In this document: positions 6,080-28,346 of the stretch, piece by piece
Layout of the letters: every line of letters starts with the position of its first letter
Position numbering within the stretch: position 1 is the first letter of the stretch
Sequence record: NC_049828.1
Strand: one strand, 5' to 3'
Source: Escherichia phage haarsle
DNA: 48,613 nt
The notes under the pieces: generated by a model
Told to the model about the DNA's origin: nothing
Database searches by the model: none
Seen by the model: the letters and a program-made list of their open reading frames with translations, nothing else
Made by a program: the position numbers and the translations under genes

Positions 6080-6127
6080 GTCTGCAATTTGTCTATAATG
6101 AGGATTTGTTATAAAGGAGGGCGCATT

Positions 6128-6649
6128 ATGGCTAAAAACGTTGAGCCAGCAGTAAAGGCTTGCAATTTTAAAAAACTATATAATAAGCAATATGGCGATA
6201 TTGCAAAAATGACAAAGGCGCACAAGTACACGCCGGAACAGGTGTTTGATCTGGCTGTCCGTTACTTTACGTGGGCCGAGGAAAACCATATACAGGCGGC
6301 GGAAACGGCATCCTTTCAAGGTGATGTATACGAAAGCAAGATTCACAAGCCGCGCGTGTTCACCTTAAATGGATTCCGCTTATTCGCTGGCCTTTCTGCT
6401 TCCGTGCTTGAAAAATGGCGACGCGAGCCAGGATTCAGCGATGTTATGGACTTTATCGACGGCGTTGTTTACGAGCAAAAATTCCAGCTTGCTGCAAACA
6501 ATATTGTTAACGCCGGATTCATTGGTAAAGAGATCGGCATTGAAAAGCCAGCCACCGTTACCATTGAGAATAACACAAGCGCCAGCGTTGACGCTGTAAC
6601 GGCGGAGGAGGTCAAAGAGGCGGTAATTGACATTTTGGAGAAGATATAA
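6128..6649 (+). CDS. terminase small subunit (putative, 173 aa)
   Basis: RBS AAGGAGG; immediately upstream of and overlapping the large terminase; TATAAT at 6094-6099. Confidence 0.6.
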   Translation: MAKNVEPAVKACNFKKLYNKQYGDIAKMTKAHKYTPEQVFDLAVRYFTWAEENHIQAAETASFQGDVYESKIHKPRVFTLNGFRLFAGLSASVLEKWRREPGFSDVMDFIDGVVYEQKFQLAANNIVNAGFIGKEIGIEKPATVTIENNTSASVDAVTAEEVKEAVIDILEKI

Positions 6650-8217
6650 TGCTGATTTGGGAAGACTTAACAGCGGCGCAAAAACGCGCCGTTAAGGAAA
6701 TGAGCGAATATTCATTCGAAAAGATGATCCGCATTTGGTTTCAACTTCTCCAGGGACAAAGGTTCTTAGGAAACTGGCATTTCAGTTACCTATGTAGCGA
6801 AGTTGAAAAAATCATCAAAGGAGAGTCACAGAATGTAATTTTCAACATAACGCCAGGCAGTGGTAAAACAGAGATATTCTCGATCCACATGTCACCTTAT
6901 GCGTCATTGAAAAGTAAGAAGGTGCGAAATCTTAATCTTTCGTTTAGTGATGGCCTTGTCCAGCAGAATAGCAACCGAATTAAGGAGATTATTGGTTCTC
7001 CAGAATGGCAGGAGCTATGGCCTGGGAAACTGGCAAAGGCAAGCGCAAAGGATTTGATTGTAACCGATGGCGGCAAGGTTAAGTTACAAGTTAACTCGCG
7101 TTCTATTGGTGGTCAGGTTACTGGTCTGCGTGGTGGCTACATGGACGATGGCTTTACTGGTATGCTGGTTCTTGATGATCCAGACAAGCCGGATGACATG
7201 CTTTCTAAGGTGAAGCGCGAAGCCGGACACATGCGCCTAAAGAACACGGTTCGATCGCGTCGAATGAAGGACACCACGCCAATTGTGATGGTTCAGCAAC
7301 GCCTACACGTCAATGATTCAACATGGTTCATGACAAACGGCGGCATGGGCGGCATCAAGTTTAAGGTGGTTAGTATTCCGGCGCTCGTTACTAAGGAATA
7401 TCGCGAAACGCTTCCTGATTGGTTAAAGCCTGAGTTTGATCGCGATGTTTTGTCCAGTAAGCCAGTGATGATTGATGGAGTTGCTCATTATTCATTCTGG
7501 CCTGCTAAGGAAAGCGCGGAGGAATTGCTTGCGCTTCGAAATGCTGATCCGTACACGTTCGCTAGTCAGTATCAGCAACAGCCTGTTGCGCTTGGCGGTA
7601 ACGTGTTTAAAACAGAGTGGTTTCAGTATTACGGCAGCAGCGAGAAATGCACGCTACCAAAACCGGATCGCTTTGAATATACATTTATCACGGTTGATAC
7701 CGCACAGAAAACAGGGGAGCTTAACGACTACTCCGTGATCTGTTATTGGGGGATGTATAAAGATCGCGTTTACTTCATTGATGGTGTTCGCGGAAAATGG
7801 GAAGCACCAGACCTTGAGACTAATTTTGTTGCGTTCGTTAATCAGTGCTGGAAGCGCAATAAAGAATGCGGAACGTTGCGAAGGATTCATGTTGAAGATA
7901 AATCGTCTGGCACTGGTTTGATTCAGAGTGCAGCGAAAAAAATAATGATCAAGATCAATCCCGTTCAGCGCGATAAAGACAAGGTTACTCGTGCAATGGA
8001 CGCAGCGCCAGTAATGCGCGCCGGACGCGTAGCACTTCCAGAATCGCATCCTATGCTGGCTGAGATACTCGCTGAAGTTGCGGCGTTTACATTAGATGAT
8101 TCGCATCCTCATGATGATATTGTTGATAACATCATTGATGCGGTTAACATTGAAATGAACATGGCAGATGATCCGGTTGGAAGAATGAAAAAATTGGCAG
8201 GTTTGCGGAACAAATAG
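6649..8217 (+). CDS. terminase large subunit (522 aa)
   Basis: Size, position before the portal gene, ATPase-like GSGKT motif. Confidence 0.85.
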   Translation: MLIWEDLTAAQKRAVKEMSEYSFEKMIRIWFQLLQGQRFLGNWHFSYLCSEVEKIIKGESQNVIFNITPGSGKTEIFSIHMSPYASLKSKKVRNLNLSFSDGLVQQNSNRIKEIIGSPEWQELWPGKLAKASAKDLIVTDGGKVKLQVNSRSIGGQVTGLRGGYMDDGFTGMLVLDDPDKPDDMLSKVKREAGHMRLKNTVRSRRMKDTTPIVMVQQRLHVNDSTWFMTNGGMGGIKFKVVSIPALVTKEYRETLPDWLKPEFDRDVLSSKPVMIDGVAHYSFWPAKESAEELLALRNADPYTFASQYQQQPVALGGNVFKTEWFQYYGSSEKCTLPKPDRFEYTFITVDTAQKTGELNDYSVICYWGMYKDRVYFIDGVRGKWEAPDLETNFVAFVNQCWKRNKECGTLRRIHVEDKSSGTGLIQSAAKKIMIKINPVQRDKDKVTRAMDAAPVMRAGRVALPESHPMLAEILAEVAAFTLDDSHPHDDIVDNIIDAVNIEMNMADDPVGRMKKLAGLRNK

Positions 8218-22166: not shown

Positions 22167-25100
22167 ATGGCTGAAAATATGATAACTGGCAGTAAGGGTG
22201 GATCATCAAAACCTTATGTTCCAAAAGAGATGGAAGATAACCTGATCTCAATCAATAAAATCAAAATCCTTCTTGCAGTTTCCGATGGCGAGTGCGATCC
22301 AGATTTTACACTTCGCGATCTGTATCTTGATGATGTTCCGGTAATTGCAGACGACGGAACTGTTAACTACCAGGGCGTGAGCGCAGAGTTTCGCCCAGGC
22401 ACACAGACTCAAGATTACATCCAGGGATTTACTGACACATCAAGCGAAGTGACGCTGGCGCGTGATATTACTACATCAAATCCTTATGTGATTTCCGTAA
22501 CCAACAAAACATTATCTGCTATCAGAATCAAAATGCTAATGCCAACAGGCATTAAGCAAGAGGATAACGGCGATCTTGTCGGCGTTAAGGTTACTTATGC
22601 TGTTGACATGGCTGTTGACGGAGACTCTTACAAAGAAGTATTGCGAGACACTATCGAAGGTAAAACGCGTTCAGGTTACGACAGAAGCAGAAGGATTGAC
22701 CTTCCGGCATTTAATGATCGCGTATTACTTAGGGTTAGAAGGGTTACGGCAGACAGCACATCTTCTCGTGTTACTGATCTGATTAAGCTACAAAGTTACG
22801 CTGAGGTTATTGATGCAAAATTCCGTTATCCTCTGACTGGTCTTGTATACGTTGAATTTGACAGTGAGCTATTCCCTAACCAGATCCCAAATATTTCAAT
22901 CAAGAAAAAGTGGAAACTGATTAATGTGCCAAGCAACTATGATCCTGTATCTCGTGAGTATAGAGGTTCATGGGATGGAACATTCAAAAAAGCCTGGTCA
23001 AACAATCCAGCATGGGTGCTTTACGACATCATTACAAATCAGCGTTATGGATTAGATCAGAGAGAGCTTGGTGTACAGGTTGACAAATGGAGTCTTTACG
23101 AAGCGGCGCAATACTGCGATCAGAAAGTGCCGGACGGAAAAGGCGGCACAGAGCCGCGTTATCTATGCGACGTTGTGATTCAAAGCCAGATTGAGGCTTA
23201 TCAGCTTATTCGTGATATTTGCTCAATCTTCCGAGGCATGAGCTTTTGGAATGGGGAGAGCTTGTCAATCGTCATTGATAAGCCGCGCGATCCGTCGTAC
23301 ATCTTCACCAATGACAACGTTGTTGATGGTGATTTTCAGTACACAACAGCAAGCGAAAAGAGCATGTACACGCAGTGCAACGTGACGTTCGACGACGAAC
23401 AAAACATGTATCAACAGGACGTAGAGGGCGTATTCGACACCGAGGCAGCATTGCGCTTTGGATACAATCCTACAAGCATAACCGCGATCGGATGTACACG
23501 CAGGAGTGAGGCTAATCGGCGCGGTCGATGGATACTAAAAACAAACTTGCGCAGCACTACGGTAAACTTTGCTACTGGACTGGAAGGCATGATCCCATCA
23601 ATAGGTGATGTGATTGCTATTGCTGACAATTTTCACAGCAGCAACCTTAAATTAAACCTATCAGGGCGCGTGATGGAAGTTTCCGGCTTGCAGGTGTTCG
23701 TTCCGTTTAAGATTGACGCGCGACCAGGTGATTTCATTATCATCAACAAGCCTGACGGAAAGCCAGTTAAGCGCACAATCTCAAAAGTAAGCGGTGACGG
23801 AAAAACCATTGAGCTAAACATTGGGTTTGGGTTTGAAGTTAAGCCGGATACAGTTTTTGCAATCGACCGCACTGACATTGCGTTGCAGCAATATGTTGTA
23901 ACGAGTATCGGAAAAGGTGATGATGATGATGAATTTACATACTCCATCACGGCTGTTGAATATGACCCTAACAAATACGACGAGATTGATTACGGAGTAA
24001 ACATTGACGACAGACCAACTTCAATTGTCCAGCCTGACACGATGGCAGCACCGGAAAACGTGCAAATATCCTCATACTCGCGAATTGTCCAGGGTGCAAG
24101 CGTTGAAACAATGGTTGTGTCGTGGGATAAAGTACCTTACGCATCGCTGTATGAAATGCAATGGCGAAAAGGCGATGGCAACTGGCTGAATACGCCGCAG
24201 ACAGCTAACAAAGAGATAGAGGTAGAAGGGATTTACTCAGGGAACTATCAAGTAAGGGTTAGATCTGTTTCTGCGAGTGGGAACACTTCCCCGTGGTCAA
24301 AGATTGCAACCGCCACACTGACAGGTAAAGTTGGCGAGCCAGGAGCGCCGATTAATCTTACAGCTTCTGATAATGAAGTTTTTGGCATTCGTGTTAAGTG
24401 GGGGATGCCAGAAGGGAGCGGAGACACGGCATACATTGAGCTTCATCAGTCGCCGGATGGAACGGCTGAAAACTCAAGCCTGCTAACGCTGATCCCGTAT
24501 CCACAATATGAATACTGGCATGGAACGCTTCCGGCTGGTCATGTTGTATGGTATCGGATCAGGAGCGTAGACAGGATCGGCAACGTTTCCGGTTGGACTG
24601 ATTTTGTTAGAGGTATGGCTTCAGATGATGTGGAGGCTGTTTTAGGAGATATTCTTGATAAGATTTTTGATACTGAAGCAGGTCAGGATCTGAAAGAGAA
24701 CGCCATTGACAGTGCAAACAAGATAAAGGACCAGGCGCAAAGCATCATTCAAAACGCATTAGCGAATGATACTGACGTTAGGATTATGAGGAAGGAAAAC
24801 GGCAAGCGCAAAGCCGAGTTTAGGCAATCAATCCAATTGATCGCAAATGAAACTGAAGCGCGCGTCACCGCAATGACTCAACTAAAGGCTGAATTTGACG
24901 AGGAGATAACTAGCGAAGTAACGAGACTTGATCAGGCAATTGCAACAGAATCGGAAACGCGAGCCACAGCCATTGAGGAATTGAAATCACAGATTGGAGA
25001 TGATATTCAGGGGCAATTAACGAGAGTTGAGGAGGCGATTGCAAGCGAAACAGAGGCGCGCGTTTCGGCTGATACAGCATTAACAGCGAAGTTTGGAGAT

Positions 25101-25592
25101 GTTGAATCAGCGCTGACTGAGAAACTTGATTCATGGGCTGGCGTTAATGGAGTTGGCGCACAGTACGCAATGAAACTTGGATTGACATACAACGGGCAGA
25201 AGTACAGCGCCGGAATGGTCATGCAGTTATCAAACAGCAATCAAGGGTTGATCTCACAAATCCTGTTTGATGCTGGCAGATTTGCGATCATGACGAGTTC
25301 TACTGGAGGATCGTATACATTGCCTTTTGTGGTAGAAAATAACCAAGTTTTCATTAACAGCCTGTTAGTAAAAGACGGTTCAATCACAAATGCTATGATC
25401 GGTAATTATATTCAGTCGAATAACTTTGTTGCTAATCAGCAGGGGTGGAGGCTGGATAAAAACGGCAGACTTGAGAACTACGGATCAACTCCAGGAGAGG
25501 GAGCTACTAAATTCACCAACGAAGGATTGAAGGTAAAAGATGCAAACGGAGTATTGAGGGTTGAACTCGGAAGGATTACCGGAAGCTGGTAA
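22167..25592 (+). CDS. tail tip/central fibre host-specificity protein (lambda J-like, 1141 aa)
   Basis: Length and position after the I-like gene; TATAAT at 22125-22130 and a partial AAATAGCAC element upstream. Confidence 0.85.
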   Translation: MAENMITGSKGGSSKPYVPKEMEDNLISINKIKILLAVSDGECDPDFTLRDLYLDDVPVIADDGTVNYQGVSAEFRPGTQTQDYIQGFTDTSSEVTLARDITTSNPYVISVTNKTLSAIRIKMLMPTGIKQEDNGDLVGVKVTYAVDMAVDGDSYKEVLRDTIEGKTRSGYDRSRRIDLPAFNDRVLLRVRRVTADSTSSRVTDLIKLQSYAEVIDAKFRYPLTGLVYVEFDSELFPNQIPNISIKKKWKLINVPSNYDPVSREYRGSWDGTFKKAWSNNPAWVLYDIITNQRYGLDQRELGVQVDKWSLYEAAQYCDQKVPDGKGGTEPRYLCDVVIQSQIEAYQLIRDICSIFRGMSFWNGESLSIVIDKPRDPSYIFTNDNVVDGDFQYTTASEKSMYTQCNVTFDDEQNMYQQDVEGVFDTEAALRFGYNPTSITAIGCTRRSEANRRGRWILKTNLRSTTVNFATGLEGMIPSIGDVIAIADNFHSSNLKLNLSGRVMEVSGLQVFVPFKIDARPGDFIIINKPDGKPVKRTISKVSGDGKTIELNIGFGFEVKPDTVFAIDRTDIALQQYVVTSIGKGDDDDEFTYSITAVEYDPNKYDEIDYGVNIDDRPTSIVQPDTMAAPENVQISSYSRIVQGASVETMVVSWDKVPYASLYEMQWRKGDGNWLNTPQTANKEIEVEGIYSGNYQVRVRSVSASGNTSPWSKIATATLTGKVGEPGAPINLTASDNEVFGIRVKWGMPEGSGDTAYIELHQSPDGTAENSSLLTLIPYPQYEYWHGTLPAGHVVWYRIRSVDRIGNVSGWTDFVRGMASDDVEAVLGDILDKIFDTEAGQDLKENAIDSANKIKDQAQSIIQNALANDTDVRIMRKENGKRKAEFRQSIQLIANETEARVTAMTQLKAEFDEEITSEVTRLDQAIATESETRATAIEELKSQIGDDIQGQLTRVEEAIASETEARVSADTALTAKFGDVESALTEKLDSWAGVNGVGAQYAMKLGLTYNGQKYSAGMVMQLSNSNQGLISQILFDAGRFAIMTSSTGGSYTLPFVVENNQVFINSLLVKDGSITNAMIGNYIQSNNFVANQQGWRLDKNGRLENYGSTPGEGATKFTNEGLKVKDANGVLRVELGRITGSW

Positions 25593-25620
25593 AAAAAGGG
25601 GGCATAGCCCCCTTTAATTT
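25591..25620. terminator. Bidirectional intrinsic terminator (A7 GGGGGC ata GCCCCC TTTAATTTT)
   Basis: Hairpin flanked by an A-tract and a T-tract between convergent genes. Confidence 0.7.
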
Positions 25621-26232
25621 TAATCATAGTGTGATGCATTTATAACCAAAACAGATGAGGCGGTGTAAATACCAACAGGTCCAGGGGTTTGTGCAACCTG
25701 CCTAGAAAAAGAGTAGATCCCGTTACCATACGCGGCAGCTTGAGACTCAAAAATCATAAATCCACCTAAAGCCGGATTAGGTACAGAGTTTAACGCTGTT
25801 AGTGATGGCATTATTGCGCAAGGGTAGCCAAGGTTAACATCAAACGCGATCCCGCTCACACCAACTTGCTTTGCATCAAGCGGCCTCATTTTTCCATGAT
25901 AAACCATTTCACCATGAGCGTTATAAAACGCTATGCCGTGACTACCTGGAGGAGTCACCATGTTACTAAAAGCATAAACAATAACCTCCCCTTGATTATC
26001 AGATCTATCAATTCTTATTGCGTGCCTTCCGCCATTGTTAAATTGCGTAAATGATATGTATGATTTAGCAGTCAATCTAACAAAGAAAAAACATACCCTA
26101 TCAACAGGAATTGACGAAGTAAAAACTGTTCCGGTATTAGCAGATATTACGGCGCGATCAATTAGATTAACTGGAGTGAAATCTGGGCTTAGCCATAATG
26201 ATCCATCTGATTTTTTTATGCTCATTCCGTAC
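25620..26232 (-). CDS. hypothetical protein (204 aa) with internal repeat related to the upstream 92-aa protein
   Basis: ATG at 26232 with RBS GGGGGTGA (the ORF track used an upstream TTG); motif GIAFYNAHGEMV resembles GYAIYDDRGREV. Confidence 0.5.
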
Positions 26233-26236
26233 ATTA

Positions 26237-26515
26237 TCACCCCCAAAAAGTATATATATATCTTGAATCAGAACCAGAAAGTCCATCCCATGTAACGGTA
26301 TCGCCACTTACACCTAAATTTGGAGCGCCAGGATCGCCACCGCGCCAGGAGTTCATGCCAACATATATTGCTTTCAATGATTTACCTGGCGGCCTGTTTT
26401 GATAAGTCTTACTACCGGATGGTTGAGTGAATTTATCAAGGAAGAAAACAGGCGTTAAAAGTCCTGTAACTTCCCTTCCTCGATCGTCATATATTGCATA
26501 CCCATACTCAGCCAT
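26237..26515 (-). CDS. hypothetical protein (92 aa)
   Basis: RBS GAGG 7 nt before the ATG; overlaps the lipoprotein stop (coupled). Confidence 0.5.
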   Translation of the reverse strand: MAEYGYAIYDDRGREVTGLLTPVFFLDKFTQPSGSKTYQNRPPGKSLKAIYVGMNSWRGGDPGAPNLGVSGDTVTWDGLSGSDSRYIYTFWG

Positions 26516-26789
26516 TTTTGCACCTCAAATCAATAAATTTACTTTCATTTTGCCAACGGTTGATAAATTTAACTTCTTTATTGTCAACGCTCAACCTGTA
26601 TTGTTTTTGGCTGAATCTGTTTTCGCGTACTGCATTAATTTTAACTTCATGGAATCCGTTAACAGGGAATGTTTTAACGTTAAATTTTGCCGTGCAGTCG
26701 ATCTCATTGAAGTTGCCAGTAGGAGACGCTGCGCAACCGGTCAGAGCGGTTACGGTGGCGATAACTGCGATTAATTTTTTCATCTTCAA
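26508..26789 (-). CDS. lipoprotein (93 aa; lipobox LTGC); Cor-like superinfection-exclusion candidate
   Basis: Signal peptide plus lipobox read from the translation; RBS GGAG; position after tail genes and own promoter are typical for a moron. Confidence 0.55.
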   Translation of the reverse strand: MKMKKLIAVIATVTALTGCAASPTGNFNEIDCTAKFNVKTFPVNGFHEVKINAVRENRFSQKQYRLSVDNKEVKFINRWQNESKFIDLRCKNG

Positions 26790-26814
26790 TACTCCTTAGT
26801 TGTCGTTGCCTGTA

Positions 26815-26857
26815 ACTATACACGATCCGACAAGCGGCGTTTAGCAAAAAGTGCTAT
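26815..26857 (-). promoter_or_regulatory. Promoter-like module M3 (variant ATAGCACTTTTTGCTAAAC, TATAGT)
   Basis: Minus-strand 20-mer at 26839-26857, 21-bp spacer, -10-like; drives the lipoprotein cassette. Confidence 0.55.
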
Positions 26858-26886
26858 TCTGTTCTTTTTGTTCTCGCGTGTTCTCA
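26858..26886. repeat. 3 direct TGTTCT repeats at ~10-bp phasing (26860-65, 26869-74, 26879-84)
   Basis: Read from the sequence; analogous to the left-end TGTTAT array. Confidence 0.55.
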
Positions 26887-26929
26887 AATCTGCGGAGTCT
26901 TAAATTTAGCTCAAAAAGTGAACAATAAT

Positions 26930-27115
26930 AGAGCGCAATACATACAGATAAATATATATACATACATATAAATCAATAAGTTAGTAGTATATATATTTAT
27001 ATTTGTTCTTTATTGTTATCTGTGTTTTGTGTGATTTTGTGTTTCTGGTGATTTTTATGTGATTATGCATGTGTCAGTGATTATGTGTGTCTATATATCT
27101 ATATCCGGCGCAAAT
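26930..27115. repeat. AT-rich tract followed by TG-rich GTGATT(T/A)T repeats
   Basis: Low-complexity region; resembles 150-300. Confidence 0.5.
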
Positions 27116-27116
27116 T

Positions 27117-27145
27117 GAGGAACAAGAGAACAAAAAGACAACAAA
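27117..27145. repeat. Inverted (AGAACA/AACA) copies of the TGTTCT repeat
   Basis: GAGGAACAAGAGAACAAAAAGACAACAAAG read from the sequence. Confidence 0.45.
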
Positions 27146-27227
27146 GATATTTATCAATCACTTACATGTAAGTTTTGTTATCCAAGTTGACGAGAACGTT
27201 GTTAAAACAGAAAAAACAAAATAACTA

Positions 27228-27255
27228 TTGACTAAACGCATCAAATAGCTACAAT
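27228..27255 (+). promoter_or_regulatory. Sigma70-type promoter (TTGACT-16-TACAAT) for the recombination operon
   Basis: Near-consensus hexamers about 30 bp upstream of the exonuclease gene. Confidence 0.65.
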
Positions 27256-27284
27256 GCAGACATACCAACCAATGAGGGCAAATC

Positions 27285-28346
27285 ATGAATAAGTTTATGG
27301 CGTACACCAGCGAAGAAATGAGCAATGAGCTTTATCACGATCCAGAAGCGTGGACGGCTGATTATGTTAGCGGATCAAGCCTTGCAGAGATTTACAGCAC
27401 ATGCCCGGCGGCGTGGAAGTTCAAGCCTCGTGACGATAAGAGCAAGGCGCTTGTTTTCGGTACGCAGTCGCATACCAACTTTGAAAGCAAGGAGTTATTC
27501 GAAAAAACCTATCGACGCGCGCCAGCGCCAGAAGACTTTAAGGATCTGATAACTAGCCAAACTGCGCTTGCCGCAAAACTGAAATCATTTGGCCTGAAAG
27601 GTACAACCGGAAATACTTACCCAGAACTTATAAAAATGATGGTTGACTGTGGCGAAGACCTTAACGTTATGTGGTTGATTGAGATGATCGCAGAAAGCCA
27701 AGCTATGACCGACGGAGTGCAGTTAATCGACGCTAAAGACTACGACGCTTGCGTTGCAATGCGCCAAGTTCTGGAATCAATACCGGAACATAACGCATGT
27801 ATGAATAGCAAGACAGCACAACGTGAATTATCGTTGTTCGGTGAAATCAACGGCGTAAAAGTCAAAGTGCGATGCGATCACGTTGACGTAACAAAGAACG
27901 TCACCGCAACGCTGATTGATGGTTACGATGAAAAAGGTCAGCCGATTTGCCGCGATATTATTTATCCAGAGGCCATTGTGATCACAGACTACAAAACCAC
28001 AATGAGCGCGAATCCGGCTGAGTTTATGCGCCTGGCTTACAATCACGGCTATTATTTGAAAATGGCGTTGCAATGTGATTTATTCAGGAAAGCGTATCCA
28101 GAAGAAAAGCGACCTATAGTTGTTCGCCTGTTAGCCCAGGAGAAGAAAGAGCCTTATTTGCCGCTGGCTTTCCGCATGAACAACGAGCAATTGAAGATTG
28201 GGCGCATTCAGTACATGAGCGTAATTAACCAGTTTGCCATGTGCCAGCAACATGACGTTTGGCCTTCGTATTCAAACGGTGAGCCTGAGGTTTGCCTTGA
28301 TACTCCTGATTGGGTGCGCCGCCAGTTTAAGCAATATCTTATTTAA
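27285..28346 (+). CDS. recombination exonuclease, PD-(D/E)xK family (353 aa)
   Basis: Nuclease-like motif region (ITDYKT); first gene of an exo-ERF-SSB module. Confidence 0.55.
   Translation: MNKFMAYTSEEMSNELYHDPEAWTADYVSGSSLAEIYSTCPAAWKFKPRDDKSKALVFGTQSHTNFESKELFEKTYRRAPAPEDFKDLITSQTALAAKLKSFGLKGTTGNTYPELIKMMVDCGEDLNVMWLIEMIAESQAMTDGVQLIDAKDYDACVAMRQVLESIPEHNACMNSKTAQRELSLFGEINGVKVKVRCDHVDVTKNVTATLIDGYDEKGQPICRDIIYPEAIVITDYKTTMSANPAEFMRLAYNHGYYLKMALQCDLFRKAYPEEKRPIVVRLLAQEKKEPYLPLAFRMNNEQLKIGRIQYMSVINQFAMCQQHDVWPSYSNGEPEVCLDTPDWVRRQFKQYLI

What the first reader, a model, noticed from the sequence alone, without database searches (positions are those of the whole stretch)
25620..26857. Leftward accessory cassette after the tail genes: lipoprotein plus two repeat-containing proteins
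Three minus-strand genes sit between the J-like gene and the recombination module, with their own module M3 promoter and a bidirectional terminator. The first encodes a 93-aa lipoprotein (lipobox LTGC), a candidate Cor-type superinfection-exclusion protein that would block the phage receptor. The next two (92 aa and 204 aa) share an internal motif (GYAIYDDRGREV versus GIAFYNAHGEMV) and have no recognisable function. This placement and independent transcription are typical of morons or host-interaction and defence modules.
Basis: partly seen in the sequence, partly recalled or inferred. Interest (0 to 1): 0.55.

Follow-up and report, generated by a model that had tools for sequence, protein, structure and literature searches.

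The report
Phage receptor-binding and self-exclusion gene cassette
These three genes are the known module that lets a T1-like coliphage recognise its outer-membrane receptor (here BtuB) and probably block that receptor after infection, so it is an ordinary, already described locus and not a defence island.

Summary
Three tightly packed leftward genes lie between the J-like tail-tip gene and the recombination genes. They have their own copy of a dispersed promoter-like motif and share a bidirectional terminator.

The window is a Warwickvirus (Drexlerviridae), about 90% identical in DNA to phage FritzSarasin (Bas04). The cassette is the published "RBP locus" downstream of gpJ. Its 204-aa protein is 99% identical to that of Bas04, whose terminal receptor is BtuB. 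The cassette follows receptor, not taxonomy: 55-71% identity to BtuB phage Bas06 (another genus), but at most 35% (35% over 51 residues; 27% over 149) to FhuA phage Bas05 (same genus).

The lipoprotein is a plausible exclusion factor, but its mature domain does not meet the Cor family, and the receptor is BtuB, not FhuA.

The shared motif is real. It occurs four times, including at the J C-terminus, and recurs in other phages.

Verdict: already known locus type; reader partly right.

The parts
26815..26857 (-). Promoter-like module: ATAGCACTTTTTGCTAAA, then a spacer, then TATAGT as -10. It is one of 16 dispersed copies in the window.
   Evidence: Its distance to the -10 hexamer matches the other copies to within 1 nt. 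Function as a promoter is inferred.
26508..26783 (-). 91-aa outer-membrane lipoprotein (lipobox LTG|C, Ala at +2, two further Cys). Candidate superinfection-exclusion factor directed at BtuB.
   Evidence: It is distributed together with the BtuB-type RBP pair. It occupies the same position as the solved exclusion lipoprotein Rtp45 / bas18_0026.
26237..26515 (-). 92-aa small tail-tip partner protein (PHROG 557, mislabelled 'outer membrane protein'). Its start overlaps the lipoprotein stop codon.
   Evidence: It has no signal peptide or TM segment. Its N-terminal half is nearly invariant across homologues.
25620..26234 (-). 204-aa receptor-binding protein of the BtuB type (PHROG 425, mislabelled 'membrane associated protein'). 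Predicted as two all-beta domains.
25595..25615 (.). Bidirectional intrinsic terminator hairpin shared by the J transcript (rightward) and the cassette (leftward).
22167..25592 (+). J-like central tail fibre (1141 aa), the presumed attachment site of the RBP module.
25521..25562 (+). Hairpin-like motif copy at the J C-terminus (EGLKVKDANGVLRV, residues 1119-1132).
   Evidence: top-scoring position in the window. Conserved in the J proteins of T1, Bas05, Bas06 and Bas10.
26465..26506 (-). Motif copy at the N-terminus of the 92-aa protein (YGYAIYDDRGREVT).
26190..26231 (-). Motif copy at the N-terminus of the 204-aa protein (YGMSIKKSDGSLWL).
25899..25940 (-). Motif copy between the two predicted domains of the 204-aa protein (HGIAFYNAHGEMVY).

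Best explanation
The cassette is the host-recognition and self-exclusion module of a BtuB-dependent T1-like phage: the 'RBP locus' downstream of gpJ.

Proposed mechanism:
- The 204-aa protein is the receptor-binding protein. It sits as a cap on the C-terminal end of the trimeric J fibre and binds the extracellular face of the vitamin B12 transporter BtuB, which triggers irreversible adsorption.
- The 92-aa protein is a second, more conserved tail-tip component that assembles with J and the RBP. It is an adaptor or accessory; its exact role is unknown.
- A beta-hairpin-like motif is shared by the J C-terminus, both N-termini and the inter-domain segment of the RBP. It is the likely docking element.
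- The 91-aa lipoprotein is exported to the inner leaflet of the outer membrane of the infected cell. It probably binds BtuB from the periplasmic side, so that incoming phages and progeny cannot adsorb. Llp does this for FhuA and Rtp45 for LptD.

All three genes are transcribed leftward from one copy of the phage's dispersed promoter-like motif and are translationally coupled.

Shown here: gene structure, homology, predicted fold, co-variation with the receptor, and the motif statistics. Inferred: BtuB binding by the 204-aa protein, presence of both proteins in the virion, exclusion by the lipoprotein, and the docking role of the motif.
For: Identity of the phage and locus. The window is about 90% identical in DNA to Warwickvirus phages including FritzSarasin/Bas04. 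The 204-aa protein is 99% identical to the Bas04 protein. The Bas04 terminal receptor is BtuB (BASEL S5 table). RB-TnSeq top genes for Bas04 and Bas06 are btuB, dcrB and sdaC.

Co-variation with receptor, not taxonomy.
- BtuB phage Bas06, in a different genus, has the same three leftward genes at 65%, 71% and 55% identity.
- FhuA phage Bas05, in the same genus, has the T1-type arrangement. Its large protein is 27% identical and its small protein 35% identical over 51 residues. Its Cor protein matches only in the signal peptide.

Published interpretation. Maffei 2021 matched alleles of this locus to receptors. The 2026 preprint confirms this and reports AlphaFold3 RBP-BtuB models for Bas04 and Bas06 that it classes as 'sound'. 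The second BASEL paper describes the locus as encoding RBPs plus exclusion factors.

Not membrane proteins. The 92-aa and 204-aa proteins have no signal peptide or TM segment.

Conservation pattern. The most conserved blocks of the 204-aa family are residues 1-17 and 86-119, which hold the motifs. The segments between them are variable.

Motif. It shows the same four-copy arrangement in the window, in the Bas06 genome and in the 933W locus.

Published modelling. AlphaFold2-Multimer models of homologous pairs place the monomeric large protein on the trimeric J end and give the best receptor models for it.

Lipoprotein. It is distributed together with the BtuB-type pair.
Against: - I found no experiment on the BtuB-type proteins themselves. 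Binding, virion incorporation and exclusion are all inferred.
- The supplementary table of the preprint names the RBP only by a re-annotated CDS number. I could not map that number unambiguously to the 204-aa gene.
- Homologues at 44-50% identity in short-tailed Stx phages appear dispensable for plaque formation by Sp5. This assumes the ORF numbering follows gene order, which I did not verify.
- The 92-aa model has only moderate confidence (pLDDT 70) and no significant fold match.
- The mature lipoprotein has no significant similarity to any characterised exclusion protein.
- RBP genes transcribed from what looks like an early or middle class promoter motif are unusual for late structural genes.
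Confidence: 0.8

Rival explanations
1. All three genes form an extended Cor-type superinfection-exclusion or moron cassette. The 92-aa and 204-aa proteins would be membrane-associated helpers of the lipoprotein in the infected cell, not virion parts.
For: [quoted passage not shown] The three genes are co-transcribed with the lipoprotein from their own promoter-like motif. The KanT1 paper proposes a Sie-related role for the homologous T1-type pair.
Against: Neither protein has a signal peptide or TM segment. The large protein is a structural homologue of a solved RBP. In T1 and Bas05 the pair is transcribed with J, on the opposite strand from cor. The cassette is present as some allele in every relative examined and tracks receptor specificity. 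The hairpin motif is shared with the J C-terminus.
Confidence: 0.07
2. J itself binds BtuB. The 92-aa and 204-aa proteins would be assembly chaperones or non-essential accessory tip proteins that modulate adsorption without determining it.
For: In lambda, and in TolC- or LamB-specific relatives, the J C-terminus carries specificity. J C-terminal features also correlate with receptor. The Stx phage Sp5 homologues seem non-essential, though the ORF mapping is unverified. Lewis 2023 treats J as the RBP.
Against: The last 90 residues of J are similar in BtuB, FhuA and YncD phages, while the downstream pair differs strongly. The homologous LptD-type protein binds its receptor directly in cryo-EM. 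AlphaFold models favour the large protein over the J tip for receptor contact.
Confidence: 0.1
3. The lipoprotein is not an exclusion factor. It would have another envelope role, for example in lysis or in outer-membrane remodelling.
For: Its mature domain has no significant match to Cor, Llp or Rtp45. The family is very small, with four clusters among 1.84 billion representatives.
Against: It holds the same position and has the same type (small lipoprotein with a Cys pair, first gene of the leftward RBP operon) as Rtp45/bas18_0026, and it is adjacent to the RBP as Cor is. It co-varies with the BtuB-type RBP. A collinear profile alignment to Cor aligns both Cys residues. The phage has a separate lysis cassette elsewhere, as in its relatives.
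Confidence: 0.12

Closest known systems
BtuB-type 'bona fide RBP locus' of BASEL phages FritzSarasin (Bas04) and KarlJaspers (Bas06) (Maffei et al. 2021, PMC8594841; 2026 preprint 10.64898/2026.04.02.716166)
   Same: Same position after J. Same three leftward genes in the same order. Identity to Bas04 is about 97-99% and to Bas06 55-71%. Both phages are experimentally BtuB-dependent.
   Different: Nothing substantive. The window phage is another member of the same group, about 90% identical in DNA across the locus.
LptD-type module of phages Oekolampad and Rtp: RBP_Oeko (PDB 9RPT chain C) and exclusion lipoprotein Rtp45 (PNAS 2025, PMC12685063)
   Different: Sequence identity is only 17% in the structural alignment. 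The LptD type has a single 321-aa RBP and no small partner. It does not score with the hairpin PSSM. The receptor is LptD, which is not a TonB-dependent transporter. The lipoproteins are unrelated in sequence.
T1 / N15 / HK022 / phi80 FhuA-type cassette: ST32 (small), ST31 (large) and Cor
   Same: Same PHROG families 557 and 425 for the small and large proteins. The same hairpin motif lies at the same three positions and at the J C-terminus. A small Cys-pair lipoprotein is adjacent.
   Different: In the FhuA type the small and large genes follow J on the same strand, and only cor is leftward. Identity is 24-28% for the large protein and at most 35% over part of the small one. The mature lipoprotein is not detectably Cor. 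The receptor is FhuA.
Small 'Ig-like' plus 'hand-like' tail-tip proteins of Dhillonvirus JLBYU60, Traversvirus tv24B/933W and Littlefixvirus (Matusiak et al. 2025, PMC12309495)
   Same: The same gene pair downstream of a J-like spike that lacks a receptor-binding domain. 933W L0126 and L0127 are 50% and 44% identical to the window proteins. The predicted role is a cap on the spike tip that contacts the receptor.
   Different: Those are short-tailed (BamA) or FhuA phages. In Stx phages lom, not a small lipoprotein, follows the pair. All evidence in that paper is in silico.
T5 pb5 / Llp and BF23 Hrs / Llp systems
   Same: The same logic: a monomeric RBP at the tip of a trimeric fibre, plus a small periplasmic lipoprotein that disables the same TonB-dependent transporter. 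In BF23 that transporter is BtuB; this point rests on my own knowledge of BF23.
   Different: No sequence similarity was found. tblastn with the lipoprotein listed no T5-like phages among the organism groups or rows shown. The genome position and the RBP fold family are different.

Membership tests
[quoted passage not shown] | Encoded directly downstream of the J-like tail-tip gene, before the recombination genes | tested here: met
   J ends at 25592. The cassette spans 25620-26783. The exonuclease gene starts at 27285.
[quoted passage not shown] | The allele matches that of phages with the same experimentally determined receptor, independently of taxonomy | tested here: met
   Identity is 99% to Bas04 (BtuB) and 55-71% to Bas06 (BtuB, other genus). 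To Bas05 (FhuA, same genus) it is at most 35%, and only over part of the small protein.
[quoted passage not shown] | Contains a protein with the fold of a demonstrated receptor-binding protein | tested here: met
[quoted passage not shown] | The protein physically binds the receptor (BtuB) and is part of the virion | not testable with these tools
   Needs binding assays and virion proteomics. Only published AlphaFold3 models exist.
Cor superinfection-exclusion lipoprotein (PHROG 1119; T1, phi80, N15) | Signal peptide with lipobox, and outer-membrane sorting | tested here: met
   MKKLIAVIATVTALTG|CA.
Cor superinfection-exclusion lipoprotein (PHROG 1119; T1, phi80, N15) | Sequence homology of the mature domain to Cor | tested here: not met
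   The mature domain gives no PHROG 1119 hit, whereas mature T1 Cor scores 3e-19. BLAST similarity is confined to the signal peptide. phmmer over 1.84 billion representatives returned only six hits, four of them small (87-97 aa) proteins sharing the BtuB-type pattern that was contrasted with Cor. hhalign gives a collinear alignment with both Cys residues aligned, but E 0.0039 and probability 8.6%. Distant relatedness is therefore not excluded.
Cor superinfection-exclusion lipoprotein (PHROG 1119; T1, phi80, N15) | Blocks FhuA-dependent phages | not testable with these tools
   The receptor linked to this cassette is BtuB, so a FhuA block is not expected. A plating assay is needed.
Small/large tail-tip pair (PHROG 557 + PHROG 425; T1 ST32/ST31, 933W L0126/L0127) | Profile matches to both families, with the genes adjacent in the order small then large | tested here: met
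   PHROG 557 E 8.8e-20 and PHROG 425 E 2.4e-49. The genes are adjacent and translationally coupled.
Small/large tail-tip pair (PHROG 557 + PHROG 425; T1 ST32/ST31, 933W L0126/L0127) | Soluble all-beta proteins without membrane-targeting signals | tested here: met
Small/large tail-tip pair (PHROG 557 + PHROG 425; T1 ST32/ST31, 933W L0126/L0127) | Hairpin motif at the small-protein N-terminus, the large-protein N-terminus, the large-protein middle and the J C-terminus (a feature defined in this study) | tested here: met
Moron / accessory defence cassette | Own promoter and terminator | tested here: met
   These are sequence features only.
Moron / accessory defence cassette | Optional: present in some close relatives and absent in others, with no role in the virion or core life cycle | tested here: not met
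   All examined relatives carry an allele at this site. The literature describes TolC phages, which instead extend J. No PADLOC search was run.

The most novel reading that the evidence does not exclude
It is present at the extreme C-terminus of J (three copies in the trimer), at the N-termini of the small and large tip proteins, and between the two domains of the large protein.

It is conserved across BtuB-, FhuA- and YncD-type cassettes of siphoviruses and in short-tailed Stx phages. It would be the common interface that lets a monomeric or heteromeric RBP module plug onto a trimeric fibre, and that lets cassettes be exchanged between unrelated phages. I did not find this described in the papers I read.
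Probability: 0.35. Interest if true: 0.5.

Novelty: already known. Interest (0 to 1): 0.3.

Why it matters
The locus decides which outer-membrane protein the phage uses, so it predicts host range, resistance routes (loss of btuB) and cross-exclusion among phages.

The analysis has three practical uses.
1. It corrects misleading public labels ('outer membrane protein', 'membrane associated protein', 'Cor') that still propagate. One 2026 paper built a different functional reading on them.
3. The repeated hairpin motif, if it is the docking element, would be useful for engineering receptor swaps.

The BtuB-directed exclusion lipoprotein is an untested but easily testable prediction.

Tried and rejected
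- Pfam gave nothing for the 92-aa and 204-aa proteins, and only sub-threshold hits for the lipoprotein.
- PDB sequence searches with single sequences and with the A1 profile found nothing useful.
- Pairwise BLAST between the 92-aa and 204-aa proteins, and between the halves of the 204-aa protein, gave no significant similarity. The claim of a tandem domain duplication therefore rests only on the motif and the secondary-structure pattern, and I do not assert it.
- A short HMM of the motif was too weak: hmmsearch reported only one of the three cassette copies. I replaced it with a PSSM scan.
- I first thought the 321-aa LptD-type RBP might be a fusion of small and large proteins. By eye, its N-terminus lines up with the large protein's N-terminus (sequences), and it does not score with the PSSM, so I dropped this idea.
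- The sigma-70 consensus scan found no minus-strand promoter upstream of the cassette, and fewer sites than shuffles overall. The promoter claim rests on the dispersed motif.
- Rfam found no RNA family anywhere in the window.
- The 92-aa model gave only weak fold matches to tail-fibre and tailspike beta-sandwiches. I could neither confirm nor reject the published claim of similarity to the lambda gpJ Ig-like domain.
- I could not verify the mapping of Sp5 ORF numbers to 933W L0126/L0127.
Full report
**What is there.** Between the 1141-aa J-like tail-tip gene (22167-25592, +) and the exonuclease / Erf-like / SSB recombination genes (from 27285, +) lie three minus-strand genes. Reading the sequence gives these starts.
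- Lipoprotein: ATG at 26783, 91 aa, with an AAGGAG Shine-Dalgarno sequence.
- 92-aa gene: ATG at 26515, preceded by GAGGTG, overlapping the lipoprotein stop codon (ATGGCTGA).
- 204-aa gene: ATG at 26234, preceded by GGGGGTGA, 2 nt after the previous stop.

All homologues of the last gene are 204-210 aa, mostly 204-205. The three genes therefore form one compact, translationally coupled leftward operon.

**Promoter and terminator.**
- This motif occurs 16 times in the window. The copy upstream of the lipoprotein is at 26857->26815.
- The simple sigma-70 scan did not flag it, so promoter function is inferred.
- The hairpin at 25595-25615 folds stably on both strands and is followed by U7 on the minus strand.

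**What phage this is.**
- The region is about 90% identical in DNA to Warwickvirus phages (Drexlerviridae, Tempevirinae) such as mar001J1, tonnikala and FritzSarasin/Bas04, which have the same gene order.
- The 204-aa protein is 99% identical to the Bas04 protein.
- The 92-aa protein is about 97% identical to its nearest cluster, which includes bas04_0024.
- The mature lipoprotein is 97-100% identical to those of these phages.

**What the locus is known to be.**
- Maffei et al. 2021 showed that allelic variants of the locus directly downstream of gpJ match the terminal receptor in Drexlerviridae and related small siphoviruses. [quoted passage not shown]
- Their S5 table gives BtuB as the terminal receptor of Bas04 (Warwickvirus) and Bas06 (Hanrivervirus), and FhuA as the receptor of Bas05 (Warwickvirus).
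- A 2026 preprint confirms the association. Its RB-TnSeq data list btuB, dcrB and sdaC as top host genes for Bas04 and Bas06. Its AlphaFold3 RBP-BtuB models are classed as 'sound'.

**My test of that association.**
- Bas06 has the same three leftward genes (204, 91 and 89 aa) at 65%, 71% and 55% identity to the window proteins, although it belongs to another genus.
- Bas05 belongs to the same genus as the window phage. It has instead the T1-type arrangement: small and large genes rightward, cor leftward.
- Bas05's large protein is 27% identical. Its small protein is 35% identical over 51 residues. Its Cor protein matches only in the signal peptide.
- The cassette therefore follows the receptor, not the phylogeny.

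**The 204-aa protein.**
- PHROG 425 matches it at E 2.4e-49 under the label 'membrane associated protein'. It has no signal peptide or hydrophobic segment.
- AlphaFold2, run with the family alignment, gives a confident all-beta two-domain model with pLDDT 86.
- Foldseek also ranks 9RPT chain C first.
- Oekolampad encodes this RBP in the same place, leftward and preceded by a small lipoprotein.
- The 204-aa protein is thus a structural homologue of a demonstrated RBP at the homologous locus.
- Within the family, the best conserved blocks are residues 1-17 and 86-119. The segments between them are variable. This is the pattern expected for a conserved attachment part and variable receptor-contacting parts.

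**The 92-aa protein.**
- It matches PHROG 557 ('outer membrane protein', E 8.8e-20) and also lacks membrane signals.
- It always accompanies the large protein: in T1 (ST32/ST31), in Bas05, in Bas10 (YncD type) and in Stx phages (933W L0126/L0127, 50% and 44% identical).
- It is absent from the LptD-type locus.
- It is more conserved than the RBP, and its N-terminal half is nearly invariant.
- Its model is only moderately confident (pLDDT 70). It gives only weak matches to tail-fibre and tailspike beta-sandwich domains.
- Matusiak et al. 2025 modelled homologous pairs as tail-spike tip components. In their models the monomeric 'hand-like' large protein capped the trimeric J end and gave the best receptor models.
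- I take the 92-aa protein to be a tail-tip accessory or adaptor. This is inferred.

**The shared motif.**
- BLAST does not detect it.
- The same pattern sits at the small-protein N-terminus, the large-protein N-terminus and the middle of the large protein in T1, Bas05 and Bas10.
- A PSSM trained only on those foreign copies, scanned over all 37,621 six-frame positions of the window, put four sites on top: J residues 1119-1132, the 204-aa N-terminus, 204-aa residues 99-112 and the 92-aa N-terminus. Scores were 17.1-20.7 against 14.6 for the next site.
- The J C-terminal copy is conserved in the J proteins of T1, Bas05, Bas06 and Bas10.
- The whole pattern recurs in the complete Bas06 genome, where it fills the top four places.
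- In the 933W locus the top five include both L0127 sites, the L0126 N-terminus and the extreme C-terminus of the upstream protein L0125.
- The LptD-type locus does not score.
- The N-terminal copies have low pLDDT in the monomer models, and the tail-proximal part of RBP_Oeko is poorly ordered in cryo-EM. This is consistent with ordering on assembly.
- I propose the motif as the docking element between J and the tip proteins. This is inference only.

**The lipoprotein.**
- The signal peptide and lipobox are clear, and Ala at +2 predicts outer-membrane sorting (established lipoprotein sorting rule).
- The PHROG 'Cor' hit at E 7e-8 depends on the signal peptide. The mature domain alone gives no Cor hit, whereas mature T1 Cor scores 3e-19.
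- A search of 1.84 billion representatives found only four small homologous clusters.
- A profile-profile comparison of the mature domains gives an end-to-end collinear alignment in which both Cys residues and a C-terminal F..W...F...C pattern line up. The statistics are E 0.0039 and probability 8.6%.
- Cor membership is therefore not shown. Distant relatedness remains possible.
- Position, size, Cys pair, co-variation with the BtuB-type pair, and the Llp and Rtp45 precedents make BtuB-directed exclusion the best functional guess.

**Rivals and caveats.**
- A 2026 paper on phage KanT1 reads the T1-type pair as Sie-related membrane proteins. The evidence above argues against that reading.
- J itself could carry specificity, but the J C-termini are similar across receptor classes while the cassette differs.
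- In the Stx phage Sp5 only ORFs 60, 61, 62, 65, 67, 70, 71, 79 and 80 were essential. This suggests that the homologous pair is dispensable there. I could not verify the ORF mapping.
- I found no direct experiment on the BtuB-type proteins.

**Verdict.** This is a correctly observed but ordinary locus. It is the already described BtuB-type receptor-recognition and exclusion module of a Warwickvirus, nearly identical to that of published phages. The moron or defence reading of the other two genes is not supported. Two results go beyond the papers I read: the fold link between the BtuB- and LptD-type RBPs, and the four-copy hairpin motif shared with the J C-terminus.

Noticed in passing
window, 16 sites: 1196+, 1659+, 2643+, 3986+, 12488-, 16248-, 26857-, 35536+, 38060+, 39080+, 42344-, 44511-, 45187-, 47106-, 47612-, 48486-: A dispersed promoter-like module: ATAGCACTTTTTGTTAAA, then about 20 nt, then (C/T)ATAAT-like. 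Many copies carry a G+C-rich inverted repeat inside the spacer, for example GCCAGGTGCGAATCCTGGC. Two copies (12488-, 16248-) point leftward inside the rightward head/tail gene block, so they would be antisense to the late genes.
   Followed up: partly
window 26860-27284: A 495-bp intergenic region between the divergent cassette and the recombination genes. It is very AT-rich (24.5% GC at 26900-27099). It holds perfect inverted repeats (26948-26961 / 26987-27000; 26863-26875 / 27126-27138) and short direct repeats. It could be a regulatory region or an origin. Nothing was tested.
   Followed up: partly
L003 (phage 933W) 5437-7621: Short-tailed Stx phages carry the same small/large pair (L0126/L0127, 50% and 44% identical), followed by lom and not by a small lipoprotein. 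L0126 is annotated as 75 aa, but the match covers 92 aa. The upstream protein L0125 carries the hairpin motif about 20 residues from its C-terminus.
   Followed up: partly
public records MG065643, MG065649, MG065657, MG065681 and others ('Campylobacter phage', 49,946 bp): Records labelled as Campylobacter jejuni phages carry this E. coli T1-like cassette at 51-71% protein identity, and 18 such records match the region in DNA. The host label looks doubtful.
   Followed up: no
window 23232-23273 (J residues 356-369): A fifth, weaker motif-like site in J (RGMSFWNGESLSIV, score 14.6). It is conserved at the same position in the J proteins of T1, Bas05, Bas06 and Bas10.
   Followed up: no
PHROG 557 / PHROG 425 annotations; GenBank records of T1-like and Stx phages: [quoted passage not shown] Neither protein has a signal peptide or a hydrophobic segment, and the large one has an RBP fold. 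The Kalemo record labels the BtuB-type lipoprotein as 'Cor'.
   Followed up: yes
L007 (Bas10, YncD type) 6099-7473: In the YncD-type locus the leftward order is small (101 aa), large (217 aa), then a 110-aa protein with an N-terminal hydrophobic segment but no clear lipobox. The presumed exclusion gene is therefore last here, not first.
   Followed up: no
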